From NCBI RefSeq assembly GCF_009914755.1, contig NC_060930.1: DNA of 64,000 bases, one strand, 5' to 3'. Below the pieces are notes generated by a model, which saw only the letters and a list, made by a program, of their open reading frames with translations, searched no databases and was not told the origin of the DNA. The stretch is from the human T2T-CHM13v2.0 reference genome, Homo sapiens. Both the position numbers and the translations under genes were made by a program. Numbering within the stretch: position 1 is the first letter of the stretch; every line of letters begins with the position of its first letter. Shown here piece by piece: positions 18,800 to 60,039 of the stretch.

Positions 18800-20040
18800 C
18801 AATGGGACAGCTGAAGAGGTGTAATTTAACAGCTTTCAGAGGCCCGTCACTGGGGTGATTGAGGTGGACAGAAGGCATGGACAGGACCAAGTCCCTTAAA
18901 AGACACAAACAGGTGGGAGAGTGTGCTGGGGGTGGGCAGAGGACTGGAGAGTACAAAAGGAGGAGGCTCCCCTTCGGAGAGCAGAGATAAGAGGAGGCAG
19001 GGAGTGAAACTGCCTGAGGAACAGAGAGGAGAGGGGAGGAGAGGAGAGGAGAGGAGAAGAGAGCAGAGGAGAGATCAGATCTGTAGCTAGGTCACATCTG
19101 GACAGGACCCAAGTCCAAGGTAAATCGAGAACAAGTGATGGAACTAAAGAATGAAGGAGAAATGGGTGGACAGGGCACAAATTGGGGAATGACAGCCTAT
19201 TCAGTGAGGATAGGAAATGCACATAAAGGACAGATGAAGATGATTTCTCTGTGTGTGATTAGAAGGATAGCAATTACAAAGATAAGAGTGAAAGGAGAGG
19301 GAGGAAAGGGGAAAAGGGAATAAGTAAGAAGACAAAATAAGCAATGAGTGTCTAAGTACCGATCTGAATGCTTAGAAAATCACCAGGCTGTTAGGCTGAG
19401 CCAAAAGAAGAGCCACAGCCGTACCCAAGAGGGGACCATCGGAAAGACAGAAGCAGGCAATTTAAGTAGCTAGCTACTGGGGTAAAATGAAAAAAAAGAA
19501 AAAATAGAAGATGGAAAAGGTGAGAAGCAAAAGAGGGAAAACCCAAAGGAGACACTGGCCCAGAAACCTTTTTAACTTTCTGTAAGAATCTTCAAGGCCC
19601 CAAACTAGGCCAAGATTCTGACTGACATTTCTGAGCTCACCAGCTGCCGTTTCCTTGAGAGAATTCTGACAGGAAGGCATAGAAATGCGAACCAACACTG
19701 CCAGCTCTGGAAAATAAATAAATAAGTAAATAACTATCCACATCCTAAACACCTCAGTGGGGGCCGAAGCCTGCTGGGGAAGAAAGCCCAGCGAGGAGGA
19801 GGGACCCGCCTGCAACTTTTCCCCAGGTATGTGCTGAGCTTTCCCCGCGTGCTGCTTTCTCCTCCAATTGTCCTCTGGCCGTTCCTGCCTTGCCCATCTG
19901 TCTTTCTTTCTTTGTGAATTTTTGGGAAGCCCTGCAGGCGATCTGCTTCTGTCATCTGAAGCCAGCAAGGCAGCGTCTGTAGAAGCAGGTGAAGCTCCAA
20001 GTTCTGCATCTCAGACAGGTGGGGGCAGACAGCTGGAGTC
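18800..20040 (+). promoter_or_regulatory. Candidate distal promoter and 5' exon region of linc-MD1
   Basis: E-boxes: CAGCTG 18808-18813, 19641-19646, 20030-20035; CAGGTG 19986-19991, 20016-20021; CATCTG 19895-19900, 19953-19958. Candidate donors: CAG|GTGGGA (18913), AAG|GTAAAT (19120), TAA|GTAAAT (19726), CAG|GTATGT (19827). Confidence 0.55.
19021..19075 (+). repeat. (GGAGA)n purine microsatellite
   Basis: 'agaggagaggggaggagaggagaggagaggagaagagagcagagga'. Confidence 0.85.
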
Positions 20041-21144
20041 CAGATCCGACAGGCAGAGCCAGGCATGGGGAAATGAATAAGAGAAAAGCCCCCAACCCCC
20101 AGGCTGAGTGCATGGGAATGACTTGTTCGCCAGTACTGACAGTGGACTTGCTTCTGGGTGCTGGAGACTGAAGCAAAGGCAGAGGGGGAGGAGGGTGGGC
20201 CTGGAAGACAAGAGGGACAATGAGGGGAGAGATTTCAAAGTAATCCCGGAAAGGGCTGGTCAGTTACCTAAAGAAGAGCTACCGGTGTTAGGAGAGACGG
20301 ATGAGAACCTGACAGCATGTGACCTTGTACTTGTGGCTTGCCCTTCGAATGCCTTGGCAAAGTATTTTGAATATCTATTGAATTTTGCTCTCAAGCAATT
20401 CAAAGGAATTTATTTTTAATATTTAATTTATCTCAAATATTCAATTGCTGCATGAGGATGGGTTTTTGGATGACCCCATAGATGTCCCCACTAAGACAAT
20501 TTAACTATTCCACTAAGAAATTAAGTCCCTGAGCAATGTATTTATTTGGAAAACTAGGACGAGAACCCCATGCTCCTGACTTGGTCCCTGGACCTTGGGC
20601 AATTCTTAATCCTCACTCAATTTAATAGGTGCAGGTACAAATTTTTTTTTTTAAGTAACAGTTTTGGGAGCTGTAATAAAAAGCTTCATCATTATTCTGT
20701 ATTATTAAATTGTATTATATTATCTTTATGATCCCTCTGCAAATGTGATATAAAGTCAAGTGAGTCAGTGGACTCTCTGCTGGGCTATCTTCTCAAGAAA
20801 AATACTCATCTCATTTTATACACATTCTTCACCAAAACACACAGAAAACTTGTTGGTAAAATTTGGAAACCAATGAAATCATTGCTGGTGGCAAGCAACT
20901 GCTCAAGCCAAAAGCACTAAGTGACTTCCAGCAGTGTTTCCCTCTCTTTTGAGTGCTGACTGCCTGTCCGCACCCTCATCAGTGAAAGCACCTACAACCA
21001 TGCCCTTGGAAAGGGCTCACACCTTCCTAACTTCTGTGTGGTTTCTATTCCTCTCCCTCATCTCTTTGCTTTTAGGAAGCTCAGAATATAAGGGCCAATT
21101 TTTTGCCCTCAAAGTGTGGAGTGTCAGAAACATTGACCTAGAGC

Positions 21145-21315
21145 AGTGGTTCTCAGAGTGTGGGCCCCAGACCAGCAGCATCAGCATCACCTGGGAACGT
21201 GCTAGAAATGAACATTCTCAGTTCCTACCCCGGCTTCCTGAATCAGAAACTCTGGGGGTGAGACCCAGCAATCTGTGTTTCAGCAAGCCATTCACGTGAT
21301 TCTGATGCACTAAAT
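21145..21315 (+). mobile_element. MER5A (hAT-Charlie MITE)
   Basis: 'cagtggttctcagagtgtgggccccagaccagcagcatcagcatcacctgggaac...gaatcagaaactctgggggtg...gtgattctgatgcac'. Confidence 0.9.
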
Positions 21316-22134
21316 TAATCAAAAGGTTAAGAGTTTTTAAGGACCTCTTCCCAGAATCCTCAGTATTCAGATCTCCTTACGTGCTGATCATCTACAGAGC
21401 TAGAATTTGTAAAAGAGACCCGTCCACCAAAAAACAACCTCTCAATTCCTTGTTCCCTCCACCTGTAAAATAGAAATATTTCTAATATACGTGTTACAAT
21501 GCTTAAAAAAGACCTGCACACTGTGCTCTGTAAGGGTGGTGGTAGTGGTGGTGGCTTTATCCGCTTGACCCTTACTGTGCAAAAGGCCTTTGGCAGATGG
21601 CTGAGAAATCAAACATGAAGCAGTTAGAGTGCTGGCCCTCTAGGAGAAGAGATGTAGACGCATTACAGGTACACGAGGAATTAGACTGCAAAATAACATG
21701 TGATTTATGCCCAATTACAGACATAGGAACTAAGAAGAGGAAGAGAATGGAGAGGAAACTTTGGGAAGAAAGTGGTTTTGAACTTTGGGAAGAAAGTGGT
21801 TTTTGAACTAAGCCTTAAAGCAAAGAATTTTAACTAGTGAAGTTGGGCAAAGGAAAAGGAATATTCCTGGTGGAAACTGAGCCTAGGGAATATTGGGAAG
21901 GTTAGATATTAGTGGTCACCTCTAGCATTCCTGTCACTAAGATGTTGACTACTCATATTGTACAGAGGGATCACCCTGTTTCTGGATCTAACCATTTATC
22001 ACCATGTTTGCAGAAATTCATCCTTTAACCCAAACTAAGTAATTTTCTTTGGACTGCTGTGAAGTGAGTCCTTTCCAGGATTAATGATTTTATTGCTATA
22101 GAATCCATATCCCTCTTTCTTGTTTATTTTTAGA

Positions 22135-22525
22135 TCATTGTTTTTCAAAGTCTTCTGGCCACTTGTAACAGAATAAAATGGTGGGGGTGGGGAGGACGAT
22201 GATGTGCAAAAATGCAGGTTCCTGGGCCCTGACCCAGATCACTTATCTCAGTGTCTATCAGATCAAGTCAGAAGAATCTGCATAGAAACTTGGGATTCTA
22301 ACATTTCTTCAAGCATGAAAGCAACTGTCCTAGAGCTGTTATTTCCTAAATTTGCTGAGCATAGAAGTCACCTAGGAGTGATTGCTTTAAAAGTGGATCC
22401 CCAGCTATTACCTTGGAGATTCTGATCCCGTGGCTCTGGAGTGGAGTGCTCCCCTACCAGGGAACAGGGATATTAATAAGCGCCTCAGAGACACCAAGAA
22501 TCAGGCAAGGTTTGGAAATACAGCA
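22135..22525. mobile_element. Adjacent MER5-family fragments
   Basis: 'aaatgcaggttcctgggccctgacccaga' and 'agaagtcacctaggagtg...ggagattctgat...ggcaaggtttggaaatacag'. Confidence 0.5.
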
Positions 22526-25500
22526 TATTAGAACAAATGTGAGCTTTGGGTTAGAGAGTAACATCAAGTCATAAGTCTGCCATTTACTTGCTGAATGATT
22601 TTGGCAAGTTTCTTAGCCACTCTGTCTCCAAATTACTTAGCCTGCTTGTGACAGTTTCATCAAATGCCTTTCACAAGATTGTTGTAAGCATGAATCCTCT
22701 AAACAAACGGCTTAGTATAATGTTGGCTCCCTCTCCTCCCCTTACCCTCCCCTCCCCTGAAGTTCCAGCTCCAATTCTCCTGGATGAGAAGCAGGGCAAG
22801 GACAACAGTGATGGTGAAATGCCACTGATACTCACCTCTTCTGGGGAAGGTGGCAGAATGCCAGCAGGAAGAGAAGGTGGGCTCTTGGAGCTGGCATTGC
22901 TCTTGGCTGCCCCTGGGAAGTTAAATGGGACTCCTGTCTAAGATTAAATCAACATTCAGAACTAGCCAGTTCTCTAAAAATAGCAAGACATTCTGGCTGA
23001 GCCCCAGAAAAAATAAGGTCTTATCCCGAATTACTACCCCATGCTTGCCTTAAAAGGAGGGACCTCTACTTTATTTCCGACCTCCTCAGCCAGATGATGG
23101 TAAGCCCCAAATAATTTGGCTTTCACTTAGTGAGCAGCAGAATCACTTCTGTTTCACAGACAGCCACCAAGAACACCAGGAAGAGATACCAGTGTTTAAG
23201 GTCACAAGTCCTCAGACTTTGAAGTGGGTGCATCAGTGCAGGCCATGCCTTCTGCAGACACTAGTAGGGCTCTAATTCCCATAAAAGCATACAATTCTGA
23301 TTACATTTTAGCAAGCTAGTATCAGTTGTTTAAAACTTCCAAGCTTCACCAGGGGCAGAGAAGGAATAGGGAGAGCTAAGATGCCTATATTAGAAATTCA
23401 GAGAGTCACCTACAGGTGATTGTTCTGCAGAGAATCCTGGTTTTCTATCCTCATCCAGCAAACAAACTAAGATCAGATCTATTATCAGAGGGAAAATCCC
23501 CTGTGGTCAGTAAGGGGACAGTCTGAGCATCTCATCACATATATCCTTTCATAAAACTCCTAAAAATGAGACTGGCATCCCAGACATTCGGAACCTGTAA
23601 TGATTCTTGTCAGAAATGATACTGATTAATACCTTTTTTTAACAAATCTACTAAAATTGTACGACGAATATTTTTGATAATATTTTTGCTTTCTCAAGTA
23701 TCTTTGAATCACCCCTTACATAAAAACAATTGTCATGTTAATGAAACCCTTTAAAGTAGATCAAATATAAGGATTTCCATGTAGTAAGTAGATTCCATTG
23801 CCAGATTAATACTAATTAATATATCAATTACACATTAATTAATAATATAATACATATAATTATTAATAAGATCAATATTATGTTGATTGTATATTATTAA
23901 TAGATAATGTTAATAATAGTAATAGAGATTATTTATTAAACTTCAAATATTATGCTCATGGCACACTACATAAATCTAATTCCTCCCGTTGAGGAAGCAC
24001 TGTTAGTCTCACTTTACAGATGAGGAAGCTGAGGCTGAAAGAGGTTAAATAGCTTGCTCAAGTCACAGATGTCCAAGCCATGCTGTTTCTCCCTGCACCC
24101 CTCATAGCCAATAACCTTGAAGATCACATTTGTCTTACTCAGACTTCTCTCGGTCTCAACCTGTCCTCGATTTTACCCAAATCCAATAGGCTTTCTAAGG
24201 ACCATTAATGAGAAATAAGCATCCTTCTATCTCTTTAATGTGTTGAGTCATTTATGTTCAAATACTGTCCTGCTCAGCAAAAGAAACTGAAAAAGAACTG
24301 TGATTGCTGTTTATGCTTTTGAGGCTACTTTTTTACTGTTACTTAAGTCTGGAACGCTTTTAAATGGTACTTGCTTCTCAGGACAAGGGAAAGGACATGT
24401 TAGTAATTTAAGGGTTTTGAGCAGTTGTCTGATCATGAGGCAGGGCTGGGGTGTGGAGTAAATCTTGTTTTCAATAACCTGTTGAGTGACATTTTATATT
24501 GCCATTGGCCCATTCTCCTAAGAAACTCAAGATATTCACATGTGTTATCTCATTAATCTTCAACCCATTCTTTGGTGGGCAGCTGGGGTTACACAACTGC
24601 TATTTACAGATAAGTAGCATGGGATTTGGTATAGGAATGAAGACAGAAAGCTGGTAATTTGGCTAATATCACCCAGCACACAATTGGCCAAGTGACACAC
24701 CACATCTCCTAATTCTTTCCATTAACAGTGCCTACTAAAGTCAAAAGATTTGGGTAGATAGGAAACTAGATAAATAATCTGGAAAAAAAACCCACATCCA
24801 ATTGTCATATAGATGCCCTTGCCCTATGCAAAGCACAGAGAAACGTGTCTTTATGTTCTCCATCCCAGATTTTTTTACCTACTATTTTTGTCTTGTCTGA
24901 AATATGTTGGTTTTGCCGTAGTTTGTTTTTCCAGTCTACCTTTCTCTCCATTTTCTAACCTGTTCCATGACTTTTCTTTCTTGTGTCTTAAGCTAGATGT
25001 CCAGGAAAATGGGAAGAAGGTTTAAACAAGGCTTTCATCATAGATATTCCCATTTCAAACTCTCTCTCTCGACTTTCAAAATTCTCTATTCATTCTAAAG
25101 TGATAAGAATTTAGTTACCTGGACTCATTAATTGTCAAGTAATTGGTTATTAACAATTTGTTTTTCTCCTGCAGATTTTGCAGTGAACTTTTAAGTAATC
25201 TTTTCACCCTACAAGGTTGGGCTTGGCAAAGACAAAACAATTCACACCCAAATGTTGGGGACAGTCTAATGGGATAGTTTACACTGTCTTGGCTATCTCA
25301 AATCTTTTCCCTGGAAATCTTTTTCTTTTGTATTCCTACATAAATGTATGAAGCTCAGCCTGGCTCATGAATAGCAAGTCTCTTAAAGTTGGCTCTTTCT
25401 AGTTCTTTGAACATAAAACTTGATGGTTCCTCTCATCGGTGCAAACCCTCACTCCTCACAACTCAAATGCCAAACACTTTGGAGGATCTCCATCTGACAG

Positions 25501-26299
25501 ATGTAACTAGTTAAAATGGACATTTATTCAGCTCTTAAGTTCCCTGGTTCTATGAAAGAAATGAGACATTTTTATTTTCTTAGAGGCACAGACACACCTC
25601 CTTCCTCCTTTGACCAAGCTGCCTCCCTGCCATCAGCCCCTGATAGTGTGTTTTTGGTTGCCCACTGCCCCCAAACTTAGAGAAGGAAGGGTAGCCCCAA
25701 ACTCTCACTTCTATGAAGTTCATACTTGACTATGGGAGAAAACAGTGTTTTCAGAGCAGAAGCTTACATAGCCATTGGATGGAATTGGATGAGCCATTGG
25801 ATGATTCCCAAGGTCAGCCCGAAAGATTTTGACTGGGATGCTAGAGACATTTTCCTATTTTCCTAAGAAACAGTATGGTTTCTAAGCCACCTCCATCAAC
25901 AACACCCCAAGCGCAGAGTTACAGAAAGGATAAAGGTACACCAAGTCAAAAACCCATAGTGTTTCCTTTTCTTCCTTCTCAACATTTTTTTTACCTTCTA
26001 AGCCTCTCTCCATGGGTTGATCCAAAACTGTGCCTCCAATCTGATTAGTTTTTTTAAATAATTACCATTTATAAATATGATAATTAATACATTTCTACGA
26101 TCCTCATTTTCCTCATCTGTAAAATCAGATAAAATGGCTACATTTCATAGAGTAGGTAGGAGTCAAGGTGCTCACATACGCAAAACACTGTAATGATTCT
26201 GTTATAGAAAACATACTTATAAAAAGTTACCTCTTATTTTTTATTACTGTGATTAAATGTTTTTAACCACCCCAGCCAGTGCTGTGAGCCTCAAACCTT

Positions 26300-26900
26300 T
26301 TTTGGGGGCCAACTCTTCCTTTGGCATATGTTTCCCCATTTTCTGGCAGAGAATCAGATACCACAAAGTTCAAAACCCCATCTCCCTCCAGCCAGGGTGG
26401 CCATCCAGACCCTGAGTGGCTCAACAGCTGCCAATGTCCCTCATCCTTCTGAGGCTCAGGCCTCACAGATTGTGGGGCAGGTGATGGGCTAGGGGGAGCA
26501 GAAGCCCGACAAAAGGATCCTTCCCGCAGTGAACAATGGTGCTTGGAATGCTGGATGGGCAGCTGCTGCCCATCAACAAGCACCCAAAACAGATAGACGT
26601 ACAGTAGGAAGTACAGGAGGGCCGGTGTGTTTCTAAGCATGAGGGGCTCTCTGCGTGAATGTGGAAAATTTCTCTGTTGGATTCTCTCTTCTTTTTAATT
26701 TTCCCTTCACTGGATCCCAAACATTAAAAAAGAATCACATTCAAAATGCACAAAAACAGCAGCAGTGAATTAATTAGTAGTAATAACAAAGGACTGGATA
26801 GACTGTAGCTGCACAAGAATAAGCCAGGGAAACGTGGTGCTGCTTATCTGTGAACAAACAGTAGGAAGGATTTGGTCCCAAGCAGCACTGCCATTCCTCA
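26300..26900 (+). promoter_or_regulatory. miR-206 proximal promoter/enhancer (MyoD/myogenin E-boxes)
   Basis: AACAGCTGCC (CAGCTG 26425-26430), CAGGTG 26478-26483 and GGCAGCTGCT (26560-26565), 490-630 bp upstream of the hairpin; fits the known MRF-driven proximal element. Confidence 0.7.
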
Positions 26901-27056
26901 CAACAGATTTATTTCAGCATGATTTGGTCGGGCGGGGGGGATTTAGGATGAGTTGAGATCCCAGTGATCTTCTCGCTAAGAGTTTCCTGCCTGGGCAAGG
27001 AGGAAAGATGCTACAAGTGGCCCACTTCTGAGATGCGGGCTGCTTCTGGATGACAC

Positions 27057-27142
27057 TGCTTCCCGAGGCCACATGCTTCTTTATATCCCCATATGGATTA
27101 CTTTGCTATGGAATGTAAGGAAGTGTGTGGTTTCGGCAAGTG
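27057..27142 (+). ncRNA. MIR206: pre-miR-206 hairpin; mature miR-206 UGGAAUGUAAGGAAGUGUGUGG at 27109-27130
   Basis: Exact miR-206 mature sequence; the 5p arm 'ccacatgcttctttatatccccata' pairs with the 3p arm 'tatggaatgtaaggaagtgtgtgg'. Confidence 0.99.
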
Positions 27143-28513
27143 CCTCCTCGCTGGCCCCAGGGTACCACCCGGAGCACAGGTTTGGTGACCTTCTTCCTCA
27201 TCAGGGCTTTGTGCCAGCAAATGACTCCCTCACCAAGGAAGCAAGAGCCTCTGAATCCCATCTGGGCTCTTCCTGAACACCCCTATCTCCCCCTCTTGAG
27301 GCGTCCTCGCTCAGCCCAAGGTTTCAGGCACACTGACTGCTGTCCCACAGTCCCCGCTGTGGCCAGCCTCCCAGACCTGGCTCCTCTGGCCAGCCTGGTG
27401 AGGAAAGGCCTTTCCCCCAAAGGTTTTTCACAGAATCAGCCCTCACCCTCCTAGTTCCTTCCTCTGGTCATATTACTTCTGAAATGAGAGGTTTCTATGA
27501 ACCAAACTGAATCATAATCTCTTTCAAGCCATGTGTATTGCAAGCGTTTCTCAGGGCTTGCATTGTACTGAGGCAGGTGCTGTGAGTGAGGTTCAGGAAA
27601 CCATAATAAGTAGTTCATCCGGGGTCACAGTCCCCTGACTCTGCTCTGCTGTCCTTTCCACTTCACACCACAACCCTGTCACAAATGGACTCTGCAAGGC
27701 TGTTTGAAGAAACACCTTGAGATGCTAAAATAGCGATTAACTCAACTAACAGGCAAGTTCCTTTCTCCTCTGTTTCCTAAACCCCTGTGTTCCCAGCTCT
27801 GACTCCAAAGGGCTTGAACCCACACCAAGAAAGTGCTGAATCTACAGAGGGAAGCCTTGAGCAGGAGGGGAGGCTGCAGTCACCCAAGGCTCATGCCATC
27901 ACCCCACGAAGAGTTTCAGAACAAGGGAGGAAGATGAAGAGGCCTCCTTCCCTCACTTAAACCCCCATTCCAGGATGGCTCTTACATCCCACACCTCTGA
28001 CTCCTTGTTTTTAGGGTGAGTGTGTGTGAGAAATTACAGCTGGGACCACACTACATTTACACCTTGAGTTCTTAAACAAAACCACAAAAGAAAACCCGAG
28101 AAGATTTGACCAAAATGTGCCAAGATGCACAAGACAGGACTGTCAAATGAAACTGAGCAGCAGCAGAACAAGGACATGGGAGAGGAGGAAAGGGAGGGAA
28201 GAAGGGAGGATGCACCATGTTTGCATAGGAGATGGCAGAGGAGTGCACAGCAGCTGGTGATGAGGGGCCCCCTGCCCAAGGAGGCGACAGCACCCAGAGC
28301 ACTGGGCCAAGGCTCCCCTCTGCCCTAACTGGGCTCAGTAACACCTGCAACACAAGCCTCTCACCTCTTCCAGAAACCAGACAGTTATCTAATGGCCTTT
28401 AAGGGCATAAAACCTGTATTTTTGGGGGGGTGGAAGGAACTTGGAAGAACATGGTAAATTACTAGAGATGGGACAGCTACAGAACTGAGCACAGAAACTT
28501 CTCACTTTAGATT

Positions 28514-28736
28514 AGTGGCCCTTCAATTGGAGATGATGTCGTTCCCCAGGGGCATTTGGCAGTGTCTAGAGACATTCTCAATTGTCACAACTCGGGGGTT
28601 CCTGGCATCTAGGGATTGGGGACCAGGGATGCTGCTGAACATCCTACAATGCACAGAACGGCCACCCCAACCCTCCAACACGCAGCAAAGAAATATCCAG
28701 CCCAAAATGTCAACATGCTAAGGTTGAGAAACCTGG
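28514..28736 (+). mobile_element. MER20 (hAT-Charlie)
   Basis: 'ccccaggggcatttggcagtgtctagagacatt...ggcatctag...gggatgctgctgaacatcctacaatgcacag...cagcccaaaatgtcaac...ggttgagaaacc'. Confidence 0.9.
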
Positions 28737-29834
28737 TTTTTTGATAGTGGTGCTTTGAATAAATGAAGTCTCTGACATCAGCATATTATGGCACATTATA
28801 TTTTGCAATGAAAATTACTGTCCTTCATTCTAAAAACTTTGGTCTTCATGTCTGTAAAATAGGCGGATAGCTCAAGGTTGTCCTTCTTTCCAATGACGTT
28901 TTCCCTTTCCTAAATCATACCTGTTCTAATGATACACTTCCTTTTCCTATCCTGGAGTTTAATTTCATGTCCTCTGCTCAGAAACTGGGGGTATGTTGTA
29001 TGGGTGGCTGTGCTGCTGGGGGTGGGGCAGGACGTGAGTAAAGAAGAGAAGAGAGAGATGGTGGGAGAAAGTGTCCAGAATTGAAGAAACTGCACAAAAA
29101 AGAGGTTTGTCATTCTGGCTGGCAAGCTGGACACATGTGCTTTTCAGTCCTGATTTCAGACCAATGGGCTGCCCTCTGCCCCCACAACTGCCTGCTTCCT
29201 TGCTCCCCAGGAGGAGCTAGAGAAGGAGCAGAGGTTAGCCAGAGGAAGAGCTGGCAGGCAGCAGCTTCAAGACAGCTATGTCACTGGCAGGAGGAGGCAG
29301 AAGGTAAGATGCCAGGACTACAGGGCCAGGAGAATGCACACCAAGGAGGAGAGGACAAGCCAAGACAGAAGCTTCAACGTAACCCTGCACAGACCACTCT
29401 AGAACCAAGCCATGTTCTGTGGTGCCCTGCTTTCTCACCACCACCATCATTGTGGGCTTTTACCTTGTTGCCATTTCTACAGTGCCTTATTGAGTGCTTT
29501 GATGTCTGGGATATCTTATTTATTCCATACAGAGCTCCCAAGCTGGAGTCCATCTTGCAGAAGTTGGCATCGCTGGTTAAACTCATTCTGTGTTTCCTGA
29601 TCAGCAGTTTCAACAATTTCAATGATGAAGTGCAAACACTTGCAGCTGAGGAAGGGAAACATGTAAAGGACAGGCTGGAGTTGAGAGTGAACTTCTTGGC
29701 CTCCAAAGCAGTCAGGATTGTCTCTAGGACTTTCCCACACCCCTGACACTGTCCATGGTGCCCACTAGGGACACAGTGCACCTTTCCTTCCTTGTCATTA
29801 AGCCTCGCAACAAGCAGGCAGAGTAGATACAACC

Positions 29835-29965
29835 TTCTCCTGCTGTGCAGATGTAGAAACTCAGGTTAAAAGATGTTATGTAACTTCCTAGAAGCAAAAG
29901 AGCCAGGAAAGCATTGGTAGGATTTGAACCCAGATAAGTGTGACTCCAAGGCCACATGCATTCCA
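29835..29965 (-). mobile_element. MIR fragment
   Basis: 'cagatgtagaaactcaggttaa...ggatttgaacccagataagtgtgactccaaggcc'. Confidence 0.75.
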
Positions 29966-30429
29966 CTTAGTTTTACTTGTCTTCATCAGGAAGAGAAAAT
30001 AAAAGGGCTGCAATGCCTAGCCCCCAGGGAGAAGGACAATTTTCTAGCATCATTCAAACTATCCTTTCTGCCTACCTCTTTTCCCACCTGCTCCCATACA
30101 TCGTGAAGACTGGCAGGCCACCTTTCTGGGGAGTTTCTTCTTCTTAGTCAGCTCTCTCCCACAGCTCACACCTCCCTAGAAACAGAGAGAAACCAGTGGG
30201 TACTCCTATTAGTTCAGTGGTTCTCAAACTTGAGCTGCATCGGAATCACCCAAAGGGCAGGTTATAGCACTAATTTCTGGGTCCTACTTCCAGATGTTTC
30301 GGGCTGGTAAGTGTTGCCATTCTTTTACAAGGCCAACATACAAATCCAGAGTTCTCCTTTAAAATCTGCAAGAATCAAAGATTTTTCCACCTCCTTTGAG
30401 AAACAGTTTAGTCAATGCTATCCCCTTGT

Positions 30430-31220
30430 TAAACCAAACAACCTCAATGTCTATGGCTGGGAGAATAAATAAATTATAGTATATTCACACAGTAGAAAAC
30501 CATAAAGCAATGAAAATTAATAAACTGCTGCTACCACATCAATATGGATGAATCTTGCAAATATCATTTTAAATGAAATATCAAGTCACAAAACAATACC
30601 TATGATATGATGCCATTATATACTAAAATATGCATATATATTGTTTAGAAATATATGCATAAATGGTAAAAACTATAAAGAAAAATATCAAAATCATAAG
30701 AAAAAATAAATTCAGTGTGATTGTTACCTCCGGGGGGAAACATAAAGAAATAAATTGGAAAAAGCATTCAGTACAAAGAAAGTAATAGTATAAAACAGTA
30801 AAAAATAGTTCTTTTTAAAAGGTAGATCGTTGGGCCAGGCGTGATGGCTCACGGCTAAAATCCCAGCACTTTGAGAGGCTGAGATGGGTGGATCACCTGA
30901 GGTCAGGGGTTTGAGACCAGCCTGGCCAACATGGCAAAACCCCATTTCTACTCAAAATACAAAAATAGCGGGACATGGTGGCAGGTGTCTGTAATTCCAG
31001 CTACTCAGGAGTTTGAGGCAGGAGAATCACTTGAAACAGGAGGCAGAGGTTGCAGTGAGCTGAGATAGCGCCACTGCACTCCAGCCTGGGTGACAGAGTG
31101 AGACTCCATCTCAAAAAAGTAACAACAAAAAAAAGTAGATCGTTGTTCATGGGTATTGGTTTTACCATTATGTACCATCACTTATATATTATAAATATTC
31201 TTTTATAAATATATCATACT
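30430..31220 (+). mobile_element. Old L1 (L1ME-like) 3' fragment, interrupted by an Alu
   Basis: 'aaattatagtatattcacacagtagaaaac', 'atggatgaatcttgcaaatatcatt', 'ggtaaaaactataaagaaaa'. Confidence 0.6.
30833..31134 (+). mobile_element. Alu (AluS-like) with TSD
   Basis: Full dimeric Alu; 'gtagatcgttg' occurs on both flanks. Confidence 0.95.
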
Positions 31221-31630
31221 TGAATTAAAAACATAATTTAAAGAAATTAAAATGTTAAGCATTCAAAGAATATATGCCAAAATGTTACATTTCTTTCGGA
31301 AAATGGGAAGAGGAAGCATTATGGCATACTGTCATTTTTCATATTCTATAATTCTATAGCATATTTGATCTTCATGATGTTTCTATTTGAAAAAAGATTA
31401 AAGATTAAAGAAAAAATAAATTGAAGTCATGCAACATGAAATACAAATTATGTATGATTTGTATGTACAAATTGTATGAGATGTATGTACAAATCATGTA
31501 AGAGGACATTCTGGACAAGGCAAGCTCCTGGCATTTGACAGATGCTAATGCTGCTTCTTTTTGCATTACAGGCTTAGACAAATGATGCTTGAGACACACC
31601 AAGATACCTGCACACTAGAGGCTGCAGTCA

Positions 31631-31749
31631 CCTCAGAAGAAAGATGCCCCCTGCTCTGGCTGGTCAAACGGAACCAAGTCCGTCTTCCTGAGAGGTTTGG
31701 TCCCCTTCAACCAGCTACAGCAGGGCTGGCAATGCCCAGTCCTTGGAGA
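31631..31749 (+). ncRNA. MIR133B: pre-miR-133b hairpin; mature miR-133b UUUGGUCCCCUUCAACCAGCUA at 31696-31717
   Basis: Exact mature sequence with the terminal A that distinguishes 133b from 133a; 5p arm 'gctggtcaaacggaaccaagtc' at 31659-31680; starts 4574 bp after the MIR206 hairpin start. Confidence 0.99.
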
Positions 31750-32289
31750 AACAGAAGAGATTCAACTGCAACTGAAATTACCTACTAAAACTTTCCTTGA
31801 GAAAACAATTCTGGTTTTTTCACCATATTCTTATGCTCCCAGGAAGGAAGAGAAGAGGAGTCCTGGAGTCAAAAGTGAGCAAGATTTTAATGCTCAACAC
31901 ACACTGTTCTGTGCCTTTGCACTCACAGCTGCAGCCACTTACATGCTTTTGACAGACACACAGTCAAGAAAGAGTTTGAGGATGGAGTTTGTGCCAACCC
32001 TAAGCCAGCCAGGGGAAGAGCATGAGACATAGAAGACAGGGCTCCTGCTCACTAGGGGCTAACAGTCTAAGGAAAGAAATTAGACATGTATATATGGTGT
32101 GATCCAATTGAATTGCAAGTTATAGCATGGCTAGTTCCAAGGCATAATTCTTACCTATCCCACCAAATATGCCTAGCACATTATGTATCATCAAGTCTCT
32201 ATTGATCTATTCAGCCCAAGATATCTATTCACTAAGCAATCATTTCTCAGTTCCCTGATCTGTAGAATAGGGATAATAGTACCTGTCAC

Positions 32290-32530
32290 ACCAGGCACAG
32301 TGGCTTATGCCTAAAATCTCAGCATTTGGGGTGGCTAAGACAGGGGATTGCTTGAGGCCAGGAGTTCCAGATCAGCCTGGTCAACATAGCAAGATGCTGT
32401 TTCTACCAAAAAAAAATTTTTTTTGTTTTAATTAGCTGAATGCGGTAGTGCACACCTATAGTCCTAGCTACTTGGGAGGCTGAGGCAGGAAGATCACTTA
32501 AGTCCAGGAGATGGAGGCTGTAATGAGCTA
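32290..32530 (+). mobile_element. AluJ-like, 3' truncated
   Basis: 'ccaggcacagtggcttatgcct...cttgaggccaggagtt...ctacttgggaggctgaggcaggaagatcactt'. Confidence 0.9.
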
Positions 32531-32769
32531 AGTTCTCATAATCGCTACCTTTTACTAAGGGAGAATTCTGACCTGTCCTTCCAGTTTATCTTTTAAGATT
32601 TGTATCTTTTATGGTGTGTGTCTGGAACTTAGACAGTAATAAGTAAATATTTGGGTTTTAAATTCTATAGACATGTGTGTTCACATGCTGTATTCTGACA
32701 CAAATGGGGTAGCATAAGTGCCTAGAGCCCACCACAGTGACCTCAGAGGAGAACACAGAGCTTACTAGC

Positions 32770-32990
32770 ACAAATCTTTGCATTCAGGAAGACCTGGGGT
32801 TGAATGCTGCCCCTCTAATTTATTAGCTGTGATATATCCTCTCCGCAGCTCAATTAACATTGCACAAGCCTTAGTTTACTCATCTGTAAAATGGGGACAA
32901 TGATACCAACCTCAGTTACCGTAAGGCTTAAAACAGACAGTGTTAATAAAGAGCCAGATATAAGCCCTTAAGAAATAGTAGCTGTTGTTT
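32770..32990 (+). mobile_element. MIR
   Basis: 'gacctggggttgaatgctgcc...tagctgtga...ccttagtttactcatctgtaaaatgggga'. Confidence 0.8.
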
Positions 32991-33069
32991 TACTGCTGTA
33001 AATGGCAACAGCACAAGGACAATGCTGTGTCCACAGGCACTTGTATGTAGAAGGAAAGAGCCAAATTAA

Positions 33070-33457
<388 letters not shown>

Positions 33458-33709
33458 TATAGGGTATTTTTATATTCCAACTATTAATTCTACTAGCATG
33501 TAGCATACATGCATTCACCCTAGTACATATGACTAGCATATAATATGCTTTACTTTTAAAAAATGCTTTATACATGAGACTGATCTTACCATCTTCAATA
33601 TCCTGTCTGGAAAGCCTTCATTTGTGAGTGCTGTTGAGATCACATGTCCTCCCAGGTAGGACATGGAGTGTGAAGGCCATTGAGTGGGTGTTCCAAAGGG
33701 CAGCACAGA

Positions 33710-33930
33710 ATGGAGTTTAGTTGAAGGTGCTGGGGACACACTACCTGGGCTCAAGTCCCAGCTCCCCACTCTCCAGCTGTGCCACTTGAGCAAGTTGCTT
33801 GACCTCTCCAGGCCTGGGTTTCCTCATCTGTAAAGTAGGAATATTGATAATAATATCTACTTCATAGAGTTTCATGAGAATACATGTAAAGGCCTGAAAC
33901 CAGTATTGGGTACATAATAATACATTCTTA
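33710..33930 (+). mobile_element. MIR
   Basis: 'cctgggctcaagtcccagctccccact...gcaagttgcttgacctctc...tttcctcatctgtaaagtagg'. Confidence 0.8.
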
Positions 33931-55395: not shown

Positions 55396-58300
55396 GGAAA
55401 TAGGTCATAAAATAATCTTAACTATTAAGAATCCATCTATTTTTACTAACATCCAATGATTAGTAAGCTGCAACCCAGCAGTTTAAATTATAGTATTAAC
55501 CTATTTTGTTAACTCACCAACACTAGATCATTCTGTCAGTTGATATAAACTATGGATTCTTCTTCCCTTAATAATCTTAATAATATCTCTTAATAAAGAA
55601 ACTATGTACAATGAACTTCCTCCTCTTGCACTTATTTGTATTTGAGTGCCTGAAACCTATTAGACATTCTCCTTTTGTACCTCATAGTTGTAATACGGAT
55701 CTAATTTACCAATGAATTCTACTTAGTTAAATTTGAATTCATTTATTTCTGAAGTGTCTCTTTATTAAAAAGCTGTACTTTTATTATATTTAGCATATGG
55801 AATTTAAGATACATTGTTTTAGCTACTTTGCTTTTAAATATATCTTTCTGCCCTTAAATATAATCAATCTCAATTCTCAGTATCCAGCATTTTTAACTGA
55901 CTGCAGTGAATTGATCACATTCTCATCAATTAGCAATTAATTGACTAAAGATGAAGAACCATGGCTTAGGAAGTTTGTATAGTTTATTTCAAACAGCTTA
56001 GATTGTAGAAGAGCCATGATTACAACCCATGTATCTGACTCCAAATACCCTAAAAGAGCTTAGAATATTACTGGAAAATATAAACACTCTCACAAAGAGA
56101 GAGAGACAGAAACAAATGTTAAAACCCCTTTTTTTAAACAAGTGGTACATGCAATATGTGTCCTCAACTGGAGTGTATGGTGGGGGATTATTCAATGAAA
56201 TCTTCTCAACCTCATCCCTAGCTAAGAAGACGGCTCCAGGAGGAAAGAGTGAAAGATTAGTCAAAGGTCAGCAGAGATAGCCCCATGGATTTGAATGGGA
56301 TCACAAGACAGGTAGGTAGGCTATGGATATTGGGTGTGGGAGTGCTGTAAGTGAAAGACTTTTCTGGCAAACATCAATCATCAGAGCTGCAGAAAGGGAG
56401 TTCTTCTCACTGCCAGCTGCGCCATCTTGCTTTCCATCATTCAGCTAAGACAGACCCTATCACCCTCCCCCCATACCCTACCACTTTCCTAAGTTGCCTC
56501 TTCTTCAGAGTCACATCTTCAAATCATCTTTATCAAGTATTAAAAGGAAAAATCACAATAAATAAATATGAAAGCAAAAAAACTGAACATACAAGATGGC
56601 AGATATGAAACTTAGATAGCTAAACTCTAGTCACAAATTTCTTAACCAAGAAAATGTTCTAAAGACATACAGGTCCCTGCATGTCTTTTCATCTACAAGG
56701 ATACCCCTGCCTGAAATTATTTTAGGGGGCCTTGTTAAAAAGGAGATTAGTCCTTTCCGGAATTCAGTTTTTAGTCTTTCAAGGATGCCCCACATTCCCT
56801 TCCCCCAAACTAGTCAGTTGCATCCTACTCCCAAAATCAGTGCTCTGAATCAGCCAAATCTGTGATTTCCCTAATCTCTGGCCTCTTTCGGTGACAAAAG
56901 TCCTTTTCCAATCTGGGCCTAAGAAGTCCTGGGGGACTCTGACCCTCTAGGGGTTCTAGGATCATCTTGTGTGTGTTCTCCTGGCCTGTGATAGTGCTTG
57001 GCTCAGCATTTAGTGAGACGGCTTCTTCACCTTGAATTTCCCCAAGCGCAGCATCTAAGCAAAGACTCCATCACTGTGGTATAGCATGAGGTGGCAAGTT
57101 TCATGTTGGTCTGGCTCAGTCCCAACTTCCCACACTCTTTTGGCCAAATCCCTAATTAAATCTGTTTGCCAAATGTCCTTTGTCTTTTAATGAGAGCTGT
57201 GGATTCACCCCCTGAAAACAAATGCACACACACATGAATCTTTGCATGTGATTTTAGGAGGTTCACAGGTATTTGGAATCTCATTCATGGATTTTCTAGA
57301 GATCCATGGACTCTACTTTAAGAACCCCTGTCTCATAACCTCCCATCTTTCCCAGGTTCTGGTCTAAGGAAACCATACAGTACCTAGCTTGTGTGTAAGC
57401 ACAGATGTCTCATAGCTGCAAATCTCATGTCATCAATCTATCCTCTCAACTCTGCTTTCCTACGATGGACTAATAACAAAAGTTGAAGCCTTTATCATTG
57501 CAGTTTTCAAATCATGGAGCCATACAACCGTCAAAAAGAGAGGGACTGTCTACTCTCTGAAGAAATAATTTACAGGAGAAAAGACATGGAGAAACAATGG
57601 GATCACTTTGAAAGACAGAAAACTAGCTGAACAGAAGCAGAGCTGGAGTTATAAAGGACGAGGCTAGGCAAGAAGGGCAGCCCCACATGCGGAGGCCTTG
57701 ATGTAAAACTGAAAAGTCCAAGCTATCCTATAATAATTTTACTTAGGAAAACCTTTGAGGAGAGCAATGGCTTAGAAAGATGGATGTGGTTTTGAGGAGC
57801 AAGATGGACAGCAAGGACGAGGGTCTAGAAACCAGAAAGTCCATAGCAGGATGTGGTGACTAAGGTAAAAGCATGAGGGAGTGGGGGTCTGAACAAGGAT
57901 AGAAAGAACTTCTCCAACTACATAGCAGAACTATAGAGAATCAATAGGACTCTGCAGCAAATTGAAATTGGTGACAAGACTCAGAGGGAGGTAGAAGGGG
58001 AACAGGAAAAGATAATGAAAAAGCTTTGAGCCTAGTTGATTTTGAAGATACTGCTTAAGGATAAAACAAAACAATTAATGGGATTTGCAACTGGAATTAG
58101 TTCAGTTAGAAATGAAGATAAATTTCCACTGCAATTGTAGCATCTCTTTCGCTGAATTGTTTAGATAAAGCATAGATGCTTAGCAAGTTTCTAACACCTA
58201 GCAAATTGACTGGATACGCTCTCAGGACAATTTCTATTTTTCATTCTGTAAGTCCATGAGTCTAAAGCCATATAGACATGCTGTCCAATGCTGCAGATGA

Positions 58301-58524
58301 AAAGTGAAAAATCAGCCCACCTGGATATTATGGTACATAACTAAGTTATATTTGTCAACTACTAGGCAAGGCATTCTAATGAGCTGGATTTTTCTTTCTT
58401 CAAATGTCTTGTTATTTCACGAATCCACCCCATGTGAAGCAATCTCCTACTTACAGTGACAGCCTGGGCAGGTAGAACTTATTTCCTGTATATTCCGCAA
58501 TGCATAAAATTTTGAGCTTCATCA

Positions 58525-58911
<387 letters not shown>

Positions 58912-58919
58912 TTATACAC

Positions 58920-59085
58920 AGTATCTACTCTAATCCTTACAGTAACTTTATGATGTAAGTGCTATTATTATTATTGCCATTTTAAAGATGAGGGGTTTGA
59001 GGCTTAGAGAATATTAAGTACCAAGGTCATGTAGCTACTAGGCAACAGAGTAAATCCAGGTGCGTTTAACTCCAAAGCTTTTCTA
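58920..59085 (-). mobile_element. MIR
   Basis: 'taatccttacagtaactttatgatgtaagtgctattatt...gatgaggggtttgaggcttagaga...ccaaggtca'. Confidence 0.75.
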
Positions 59086-60039
59086 TTAGTGTGTGAACAG
59101 TTTGAGTGTGTCTAAGCCAGTGGTCCTTGTAAAACTGTATATTCCCTGCTGCTCTTTTTAAAACTAATTCTTCAATAAATGTTTATTAGATGGATAGATA
59201 GGATGGTTGAAAGGATAGATAAATGGATGGGTGGGGATGTTTGATGAATTAGGACAACCAATGGACAATACATTTCTGCTAAGAACCAGGCTCCCAAACA
59301 AAAGCATTTGTAGAGCCTTCCTGTTTGTGTACCAGGTACTCAGCTGAAGTGCCTCTTCTAGCAACAAGCATAAAGGCAGGAGATAAGTGTGTTTCTCACC
59401 TGTGTCAAGTGGTCTGTCAACCACTTCCCTGATGGCTATTAACTCATCATCTCCAGCAGATGTTGTGTTTAACCCAGATAGGGCCCTGGCTCCCCATCTC
59501 TCACTTTCAGGTGTTAACCTCACTACATGTGGTTGCAATGCTCTATACAGCATATCTTACCAAAAAAAATCTAAAAACCACATAAGTTCAGCAGGATCCA
59601 CATAGACGTGTATAAAGCACATAACTATTTTTAAAGGTGACAGAAAAAATGTCTACATCCAACCTTTCCAGACAGGGAGAGCATCTTTAAAAGATAATAA
59701 ATAGACATGTACTATACATCTATCATTTATGTTTTGCACAATACTAAGAACTACAACTTAATAAATTTAAGTGGAGATGGACCAAAAAATTTATAGATAT
59801 AGATATACACACAAAATTACACATATGGATTATACAACACACATATACATGCACCTTATATATAAGCTATATATGTATGTATAAATAATTGAAATATAAT
59901 GCAATAAATAAAATAGAAGCAATTACAACACTCAGACTGATGAGAAATAATAGAGCTCAGAGCTGGAGGCATTCTTTGCCAAGACTCAATGGTATGAAGG
60001 AAAGAAACTATGCCATCTACTACATTTTTCCTCTGTTGT

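What the first reader, a model, noticed from the sequence alone, without database searches (positions are those of the whole stretch)
18850..31800. One locus, three RNA outputs: intronic miR-206, exonic miR-133b and the linc-MD1 lncRNA as mutually exclusive fates
Seen: a clean 3' splice site (branch CTAAT 31545-31549, 'gcttctttttgcattacag|g', exon start 31572) sits just upstream of the miR-133b hairpin. miR-206 lies upstream of that acceptor, and strong donors lie ~12 kb further up (19120, 19827) in an E-box-rich island. Inference: splicing releases miR-206 without harming the lncRNA, but Drosha cropping of miR-133b cuts the last exon, so each transcript yields either the miRNA or the lncRNA. 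The lncRNA also keeps the 5p arm, which is complementary to miR-133 and could act as a sponge. Established: this is the published linc-MD1 competing-endogenous-RNA system in muscle differentiation, so it is not new. The human exon boundaries given here are my inference.
Basis: partly seen in the sequence, partly recalled or inferred. Interest (0 to 1): 0.8.

Follow-up and report, generated by a model that had tools for sequence, protein, structure and literature searches.

The report
Human linc-MD1 / miR-206 / miR-133b locus
This is the already published muscle locus in which one RNA can become either the microRNA miR-133b or a long non-coding RNA that soaks up microRNAs; the human exon map proposed here is plausible but unproven, and the official human gene model with that name lies on the opposite strand.

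Summary
Motif strength alone does not single them out. The 31572 acceptor ranks 37 of 4678 AG sites; donors 19827, 19120 and 19726 rank 16, 77 and 706 of 2965.

Independent support comes from mouse Lincmd1 primers in two papers. They map to human 18852-18921 on the + strand with 0-1 mismatch.

The mechanism is published for mouse. That covers Drosha cropping versus export of the intact RNA, HuR control, and the miR-133b* arm as the miR-133 site (Legnini 2014; Boettger 2014). It is not new.

- A stronger donor at 18913 inside the conserved block.
- A likely middle exon at 25584-25812 with two miR-135 seed matches.
- RefSeq LINCMD1 is a separate antisense GT-AG spliced RNA with no miR-133 or miR-135 seed match.

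The strand problem was noted in print in 2016. Two recent human studies still target the antisense RNA. The human junctions remain untested.

The parts
18808..18829 (+). E-box CAGCTG (18808-18813) and AT-rich TAATTTAA (18822-18829) just upstream of the conserved block. Inferred core of the distal promoter.
   Evidence: Sequence. The promoter role is inference. Distal and proximal promoters are described for mouse in passages of PMC9834662 citing Cesana 2011.
18852..18921 (+). Block orthologous to the 5' region of mouse Lincmd1. Inferred start of human sense exon 1.
   Evidence: The mouse RT-qPCR forward primer (PMC6798001 Table I) maps to 18854-18875 + with 1 mismatch. The mouse ChIP primers (PMC6172026 Table 1) map to 18852-18872 + with 1 mismatch and to 18900-18921 - with 0 mismatches. 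In each search 0 of 100 shuffles gave any match. The block is single-copy in the own genome.
18884..18894 (+). GGACCAAGTCC: a canonical miR-133 7mer-m8 seed match (18884-18890) that continues like the miR-133b 5p arm.
   Evidence: It is 1 of 3 + strand GGACCAA sites in 64 kb. Mean unpaired probability is 0.63 in a model spliced RNA.
18913..18914 (+). Donor candidate CAG|GTGGGA, overlapping E-box CAGGTG at 18910-18915.
   Evidence: 9.58 bits against 7.44 for 19120. It lies inside the 22/22 mouse-identical primer site.
19105..19116 (+). GGACCCAAGTCC: a second 5p-arm-like element with a one-base bulge, ending 3 nt before the 19120 donor.
   Evidence: (repeat family D2). Unpaired probability 0.74.
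19120..19121 (+).
   Evidence: Rank 77 of 2965 + strand GT sites.
19827..19828 (+). Supported by its motif only.
   Evidence: Rank 16 of 2965. No conservation or site evidence.
25584..25812 (+). Candidate middle exon (alternative start 25637). It holds two tandem AGCCATTGGATG units, each with a miR-135 6-mer match (25770, 25792), and one miR-133 6-mer (25612).
   Evidence: Acceptor 8.8 bits, donor AAG|GTCAGC 7.6 bits. Of 22 candidate internal exons between 19120 and 27056, only these 2 carry any miR-135 6-mer, and both carry two. The miR-135 motif is recalled.
26425..26565 (+). Three CAGCTG/CAGGTG E-boxes (26425, 26478, 26560) 0.5-0.6 kb upstream of miR-206. Inferred proximal promoter or enhancer.
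   Evidence: The role is inferred from the mouse proximal promoter.
27057..27142 (+). MIR206 hairpin. It would be intronic in any model that splices into 31572.
   Evidence: Rfam mir-1 family at 27062-27137, 75.2 bits. RefSeq row in the finding.
31545..31571 (+). Branch-point-like CTAAT, pyrimidine tract and AG of the proposed last-exon acceptor.
   Evidence: Rank 37 of 4678 AG sites, and the best acceptor motif within 1.4 kb upstream of the hairpin. It is not shared with the chr18 and chr20 mir-133a loci.
31572..31830 (+). Proposed last exon (minimum extent; 3' end unknown).
   Evidence: Inference. No AATAAA or ATTAAA between 31750 and 32944. ACTAAA at 31784, AATAAA at 32945, ATTAAA at 33065.
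31645..31731 (+). pri-miR-133b stem-loop: 35 predicted base pairs. Mature 3p is 31696-31717. The 5p arm carries GGAACCAAGTCC at 31670-31681.
   Evidence: The 5p seed-match region has a mean unpaired probability of 0.13.
29522..33731 (-). RefSeq LINCMD1 (NR_131248.1): an antisense three-exon RNA (33731-33590, 30175-30076, 29645-29522). Its first intron spans miR-133b in antisense.
   Evidence: Canonical GT-AG at all four minus-strand junctions, and AATAAA at 29524-29519. 0 of 8 miR-133, miR-135 and miR-206 seed patterns match in its 366 nt.

Best explanation
A + strand, muscle-specific host RNA, the human counterpart of mouse linc-MD1, starts at about 18850. It is spliced, probably through a middle exon upstream of miR-206, into a last exon that begins at or near 31572 and contains the whole pri-miR-133b hairpin.

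miR-206 sits in the intron before that exon and can be cropped without destroying the spliced RNA. It can also come from its own proximal promoter.

Each molecule of the spliced RNA has two possible fates. Microprocessor can cut at about 31658 and 31717, which releases pre-miR-133b and severs the last exon. [quoted passage not shown]

Basis of each step:
- Shown in mouse by others: the alternative fates, the repression of cropping by HuR, and the miR-133b* arm as the miR-133 site.
- Shown here: strand, hairpins, motif positions, and orthology of the 5' block.
- Inferred: all human junctions, the transcription start, the 3' end and the fate switch in human cells.
For: - Both hairpins are on the + strand.
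- Human 18852-18921 (+) matches three mouse Lincmd1 primers, with 42 of the 43 distinct covered bases identical by my count. The block is single-copy.
- 31572 is the best acceptor motif within 1.4 kb upstream of the hairpin, with a YTNAY branch 23 nt upstream of the AG.
- The hairpin (31645-31731, 35 bp) lies 73 nt inside the proposed exon, so both Drosha cuts fall in exon sequence.
- Mouse architecture: three exons, miR-135 sites in exon 2, and the miR-133 site equal to miR-133b* in exon 3. The exon 2 sites were unaffected by a deletion running from miR-206 to miR-133b (PMC4272821 passages).
- Mouse mechanism: linc-MD1 and the 5' cut-off products vary inversely, and HuR knock-down shifts the balance (PMC3919156 sections).
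- A human counterpart, 'linc-hMD1', was detected in HuR immunoprecipitates from human myoblasts.
- The candidate exon 25584-25812 is the only one of 22 candidates with miR-135 6-mers, counting its two alternative starts as one.
Against: - No transcript data were available. RefSeq on T2T lists no + strand host RNA here, only the antisense LINCMD1 (finding's table).
- Splice motifs of this strength are common: 36 + strand AG sites score higher in 64 kb, and three of them lie between the two miRNAs.
- The mouse RT-qPCR reverse primer and a mouse antisense-oligonucleotide target from nt 401-521 have no human match at 3 or fewer mismatches. Parts of the RNA are therefore poorly conserved.
- There is no canonical poly(A) signal for 1.2 kb after the hairpin, whereas mouse Lincmd1 is only 521 nt.
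- The mouse HuR heptamer AAUAUUU is absent from 31000-32500.
- The 5p-arm site has a bulged seed, not a canonical one, and is mostly paired (unpaired probability 0.13).
- The mouse knock-out of miR-206, miR-133b and exon 3 had no overt phenotype.
Confidence: 0.7

Rival explanations
1. In human muscle the two miRNAs come mainly from an unspliced or differently spliced pri-miR-206~133b transcript driven by the proximal promoter just upstream of miR-206. In that case the 31572 acceptor and the 19-kb donors are chance motifs, and the hairpin is not in a spliced last exon.
For: - Three CAGCTG/CAGGTG E-boxes lie at 26425-26565, just upstream of miR-206.
[quoted passage not shown] A probe set between the two miRNAs, outside the known linc-MD1 exons, detects that RNA.
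- Acceptor-like motifs of equal or higher score occur about once per 1.7 kb (37 in 64 kb).
Against: - The 5' block at 18852-18921 is conserved with a sequence that lies in the mouse transcript, since it carries an RT-qPCR forward primer.
- A human counterpart RNA has been reported.
- The two routes are not exclusive. Mouse has both promoters.
Confidence: 0.2
2. The RNA annotated as LINCMD1 (minus strand, 29522-33731) is the real human linc-MD1, and the sense model is wrong.
For: - RefSeq names it so (finding's table).
- All four of its splice junctions are canonical on the minus strand.
- It is reported as highly expressed in myotube nuclei (PMC5137429 passage).
Against: - It is antisense to both miRNAs, so it cannot host miR-133b.
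- The hairpin lies in its intron.
- Its 366 nt hold 0 of 8 tested miR-133, miR-135 and miR-206 seed patterns.
- The mouse Lincmd1 5' primers map to the + strand 10.6 kb outside its annotated span (29522-33731).
- PMC5137429 itself raises the possibility that it is misannotated.
Confidence: 0.05

Closest known systems
Mouse linc-MD1 (Lincmd1): Cesana et al. 2011 (not held; known through citing papers), Legnini et al. 2014 (PMC3919156), Boettger et al. 2014 (PMC4272821)
   Same: - Same pair of miRNAs on one strand, with IL17A downstream (finding's table).
- The 5' region is nearly identical over the primer sites.
- The miR-133b* arm is present as a potential miR-133 site.
- The hairpin lies downstream of a good acceptor.
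   Different: - The human exon junctions are unverified.
- The mouse HuR heptamer is not found near the human hairpin.
- No 60-nt extended stem is predicted in human. The predicted stem has 35 bp.
- There is no canonical poly(A) signal within 1.2 kb, against a 521-nt mouse RNA.
- Human exon 1 has an extra canonical miR-133 seed match at 18884. I could not check its presence in mouse.
Other lncRNAs that carry an exonic miRNA hairpin, such as H19/miR-675 (named together with linc-MD1 and LEADeR/miR-205 in PMC10667839 passages)
   Same: One primary transcript serves either as a functional long RNA or as a miRNA precursor.
   Different: Different loci and partners. Whether HuR also acts on H19 is my recollection and comes from no call.
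RefSeq LINCMD1 NR_131248.1
   Same: It shares the name and the genomic neighbourhood.
   Different: It lies on the opposite strand, does not contain the hairpin in its exons, and has no miR-133 or miR-135 seed match.

Membership tests
Rfam mir-133 (RF00446) and mir-1 (RF00103) | Covariance-model score above the gathering threshold | tested here: met
   71.8 bits (cut-off 55.5) at 31651-31723 +, and 75.2 bits (cut-off 45.6) at 27062-27137 +. The genome holds three mir-133 loci: chr18, chr20 and chr6.
linc-MD1 orthologue (sense host lncRNA) | Same strand as miR-206 and miR-133b, with a 5' region orthologous to mouse Lincmd1 | tested here: met
   Three mouse primers map to 18852-18921 with the transcript sense on the + strand, at 0-1 mismatch each. 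0 of 100 shuffles matched in each search.
linc-MD1 orthologue (sense host lncRNA) | pri-miR-133b hairpin inside the last exon | tested here: inconclusive
   An acceptor motif lies 73 nt upstream of the stem, rank 37 of 4678. No transcript evidence.
linc-MD1 orthologue (sense host lncRNA) | miR-133 response element equal to the miR-133b* sequence in the last exon | tested here: met
   The 5p arm GGAACCAAGTCC lies at 31670-31681. It pairs to miR-133 nt 2-8 with a one-base bulge and is mostly paired in cis.
linc-MD1 orthologue (sense host lncRNA) | Two miR-135 sites in a middle exon upstream of miR-206 | tested here: inconclusive
   The candidate exon 25584-25812 has two 6-mer matches. It is the only one of 22 candidates, counting its two alternative starts as one. 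The seed motif is recalled. No 7-mer match.
linc-MD1 orthologue (sense host lncRNA) | [quoted passage not shown] | tested here: not met
   No AATATTT on the + strand in 31000-32500. A U-rich tract at about 31811-31817 is the nearest candidate.
linc-MD1 orthologue (sense host lncRNA) | Polyadenylated cytoplasmic RNA induced on differentiation, with its level set by Drosha and HuR | not testable with these tools
   Needs expression data. Reported for mouse and stated for human in reviews.
RefSeq LINCMD1 as the published linc-MD1 | Hosts miR-133b in sense and carries miR-133 and miR-135 sites | tested here: not met
   It is a minus-strand GT-AG transcript. The hairpin is intronic and antisense. 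0 of 8 seed patterns match.

The most novel reading that the evidence does not exclude
Human linc-MD1 may carry its effective miR-133 decoy in exon 1 rather than, or besides, the hairpin's 5p arm.
- The 8-mer CCAAGTCC occurs only three times on either strand of the 64-kb window. All three are on the + strand: in the miR-133b 5p arm (31674) and twice in the proposed exon 1 (18887, 19109).
- The 18884 copy is a canonical 7mer-m8 site. It is predicted to be mostly unpaired (0.63), against 0.13 for the 5p arm.
- The AAGTCC extension is specific to miR-133b and is not found in the miR-133a paralogues.

If these are working sites, decoy capacity would not be tied to keeping the hairpin intact. The 5' fragment left by Drosha would still hold them.
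Probability: 0.2. Interest if true: 0.45.

Novelty: already known. Interest (0 to 1): 0.27.

Why it matters
The mechanism is textbook for competing endogenous RNAs, so the finding adds no new biology.

Its practical value is in annotation.
- The human sense host RNA is still missing from RefSeq on T2T, while an antisense RNA bears its name.
- In both human studies whose oligonucleotides I could read, the reagents hit the antisense RNA. One is a TaqMan assay and one is a therapeutic antisense oligonucleotide.
- The TaqMan study explains its result by the sense-RNA mechanism. The antisense-oligonucleotide study proposes a different role, binding of DZIP3.

A concrete, testable exon model may help to correct this: a 5' exon from about 18850, a possible middle exon at 25584-25812, and a last exon from 31572.

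Tried and rejected
- I first meant to reject the 5p-arm sponge idea. The seed match is bulged and the mean unpaired probability is 0.13. Boettger 2014 then showed that this arm is the published mouse site. I keep the idea, with the structural caveat.
- An RNAduplex scan of miR-133b against the whole + strand did not discriminate. The best energies fell at unrelated places.
- The mouse reverse RT-qPCR primer target and the mouse antisense-oligonucleotide target have no human match at 3 or fewer mismatches. Local alignments were at noise level.
- I looked for the 60-nt extended stem reported for mouse pri-miR-133b. It is not predicted in human. The 259-nt fold has z = -1.69.
- Paralogue comparison: the chr18 and chr20 mir-133a loci share only the hairpin, so they say nothing about the acceptor.
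- 1-kb E-box frames showed no enrichment for 18850-19849. Wider frames did.
- The own-genome DNA search with the hairpin found only itself.
- Papers not held: Cesana 2011, Twayana 2013 and Cazzella 2012.
I therefore did not see the primer tables of Legnini 2014 (Table S2) or of the leiomyoma LINCMD1 paper (Table S2). They could show the human sense primers.
- Paper searches gave no exon map of human linc-MD1. I found none in print with these searches.


Full report
**What is in the sequence**

The window is human chr6:51956001-52020000 (finding's table). Rfam finds a mir-1 family hairpin at 27062-27137 (75.2 bits) and a mir-133 hairpin at 31651-31723 (71.8 bits), both on the + strand.

- CTAAT at 31545-31549.
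- A pyrimidine tract ending in AG at 31570-31571, so an exon would start at 31572.
- GT at 19120 (AAG|GTAAAT), 19827 (CAG|GTATGT) and 19726 (TAA|GTAAAT).

The miR-133b stem-loop is predicted at 31645-31731 with 35 base pairs. The 3p strand (31696-31717) pairs to 31657-31678. Both Drosha cuts would therefore fall inside an exon that starts at 31572.

**Are the motifs more than chance?**

I scored every GT and AG of the window with a simple splice matrix that I recalled.
- The 31572 acceptor ranks 37 of 4678 + strand AG sites.
- Donor 19827 ranks 16 of 2965, donor 19120 ranks 77 and donor 19726 ranks 706.
- Three stronger acceptor motifs (29211, 27205, 28015) lie between the two miRNAs.
- 31572 is the best acceptor motif in the 1.4 kb upstream of the hairpin.

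Motif strength alone is thus suggestive, not decisive.

The 'E-box-rich island' depends on the frame chosen.
- 18850-19849 has 5 CANNTG against a mean of 5.3 per kb.
- Frames of 1200-1250 bp from 18800 or 18850 have 10-12 (mean 6.4-6.6; equalled by 3-12% of frames).
- The same frames have 4-6 boxes of the CAGCTG/CAGGTG type (mean 1.3; equalled by 1-5% of frames).

**Independent anchor for the 5' end**

Two mouse papers print Lincmd1 primers in their main text.
- The RT-qPCR forward primer of PMC6798001 (Table I) maps to human 18854-18875 on the + strand with one mismatch.
- The ChIP-qPCR pair of PMC6172026 (Table 1) maps to 18852-18872 + with one mismatch and to 18900-18921 on the - strand with none.
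- In each search 0 of 100 shuffles gave a match.

The block is single-copy in the human genome. Only the GA-rich repeat at 19016-19074 finds other places.

An E-box (18808) and an AT-rich TAATTTAA (18822) lie just upstream. This fits a start near 18850, but that is inference.

It scores 9.6 bits against 7.4 for 19120 and lies within the primer site that is 22/22 identical to mouse. I cannot tell which donor is used.

**What is published**

Legnini et al. 2014 (PMC3919156; abstract, Introduction, one Results section and passages read) make these points:
- linc-MD1 harbours pri-miR-133b, and the two products are mutually exclusive.
- HuR binds at the base of the stem-loop and represses Drosha cleavage.
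- 5' cut-off products rise as linc-MD1 falls.
- A human counterpart, 'linc-hMD1', co-precipitates with HuR in human myoblasts.

Boettger et al. 2014 (PMC4272821, passages) describe the mouse gene:
- The miR-135 sites are in the second exon.
- Their deletion from miR-206 to miR-133b removed exon 3 but not the exon 2 sites. This places miR-206 in intron 2.
- The knock-out had no overt phenotype.

Distal and proximal promoters are described through PMC9834662 (passages).

Cesana 2011 and Twayana 2013 were not held.

**The strand conflict**

RefSeq LINCMD1 (NR_131248.1) lies on the minus strand.
- All of its junctions are canonical on that strand: ATG|GTAAGA after 33590, tttctag|G before 30175, GAG|GTAGGC after 30076 and ttcctcag|C before 29645. 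AATAAA lies at 29524-29519.
- It is thus a genuine antisense spliced RNA. Its first intron spans miR-133b.
- Its 366 nt contain 0 of 8 tested miR-133, miR-135 and miR-206 seed patterns.

Zeng et al. 2016 (PMC5137429, passage) already wrote that human LINCMD1 is on the reverse strand and 'may be misannotated'.

The confusion persists.
- The custom TaqMan primers of PMC13132963 map to minus-strand exon 2 and the exon 2/3 junction.
- The 'human-specific' antisense oligonucleotide of PMC13042636 targets minus-strand exon 3.
- PMC13132963 explains LINCMD1 as the miR-133b host with mutually exclusive biogenesis.

These were 2 of 2 human studies whose oligonucleotides I could see. A third keeps its primers in a supplement that I could not open.

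**Additions to the human model**

(a) A two-exon model (18850-19119 + 31572-31830) has no miR-135 seed match, but mouse has two in exon 2. Between 19120 and 27056 I listed 22 candidate internal exons (acceptor and donor each at least 7 bits, 50-300 nt). Only two carry any miR-135 6-mer, and each carries two, in a tandem AGCCATTGGATG. They share the donor at 25813 and start at 25584 or 25637. This is a candidate exon 2, held with low to moderate confidence. The seed motif is recalled.

(b) The 5p arm reads GGAACCAAGTCC. It pairs with miR-133 nucleotides 2-8 only with a bulged A. In a model spliced RNA its mean unpaired probability is 0.13.

(c) The proposed exon 1 holds two look-alikes. GGACCAAGTCC at 18884 is a canonical 7mer-m8 site, one of three + strand GGACCAA sites in the window. 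GGACCCAAGTCC at 19105 ends 3 nt before the 19120 donor. Their unpaired probabilities are 0.63 and 0.74.

The 8-mer CCAAGTCC occurs three times in the window on either strand, and these are the three places. The count itself is as expected by chance (mean 2.4 in shuffles). It is the placement that stands out, and I noticed it post hoc. The AAGTCC part is specific to miR-133b among the three human mir-133 hairpins.

**Differences from mouse**

- The HuR heptamer mapped in mouse (AAUAUUU) is absent from 31000-32500.
- No extended 60-nt stem is predicted.
- There is no AATAAA or ATTAAA between 31750 and 32944. Only ACTAAA occurs, at 31784. Mouse Lincmd1 is 521 nt.
- The mouse reverse primer and a mouse 3' oligonucleotide target find no human counterpart.

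**Verdict**

The specific junctions are open. My estimates:
- Acceptor 31572: about 0.5.
- Donors 18913 and 19120: about 0.35 each.
- Donor 19827: about 0.1.
- Donor 19726: unlikely.

Novelty: already known. The useful residue is a testable human exon model and a documented annotation trap.

Noticed in passing
window 29522-33731 (-): RefSeq LINCMD1 is an antisense GT-AG spliced RNA, not the miR-133b host. A TaqMan assay (PMC13132963) and a human antisense oligonucleotide (PMC13042636) both map to its minus-strand exons. The strand problem was flagged in 2016 (PMC5137429).
   Followed up: yes
window 18887, 19109, 31674 (+): The 8-mer CCAAGTCC occurs exactly three times in the window on either strand: in the miR-133b 5p arm and twice in the proposed exon 1. 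One of the two exon 1 copies lies in a canonical miR-133 seed site. The count is as expected by chance; the placement is not. This was noticed post hoc.
   Followed up: partly
window 25584-25812 (+): Candidate middle exon with a tandem AGCCATTGGATG (two miR-135 6-mer matches) and a miR-133 6-mer at 25612, flanked by fair splice motifs.
   Followed up: partly
window 19016-19074: A GA-rich 10-nt periodic repeat (GAGGAGAGGA-like) lies inside the proposed exon 1 if donor 19120 is used. Similar tracts occur at many places in the genome.
   Followed up: partly
window 31750-32944 (+): There is no AATAAA or ATTAAA for 1.2 kb downstream of the miR-133b hairpin. Only ACTAAA occurs, at 31784, followed by a T-run at about 31811-31817. 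The 3' end of the human sense RNA is therefore unclear.
   Followed up: partly
window 31000-32500 (+): The HuR-binding heptamer mapped at the base of mouse pri-miR-133b (AAUAUUU) is absent here.
   Followed up: partly
window 58100-59800: This stretch has the highest density of CAGCTG/CAGGTG-type E-boxes in the window (up to 7 per 1250 bp). It overlaps a masked repeat (58546-58895).
   Followed up: no
window 31582 onward (+): A 68-codon ATG-initiated open frame starts 10 nt into the proposed last exon and runs through the hairpin. It is probably chance and was not examined.
   Followed up: no
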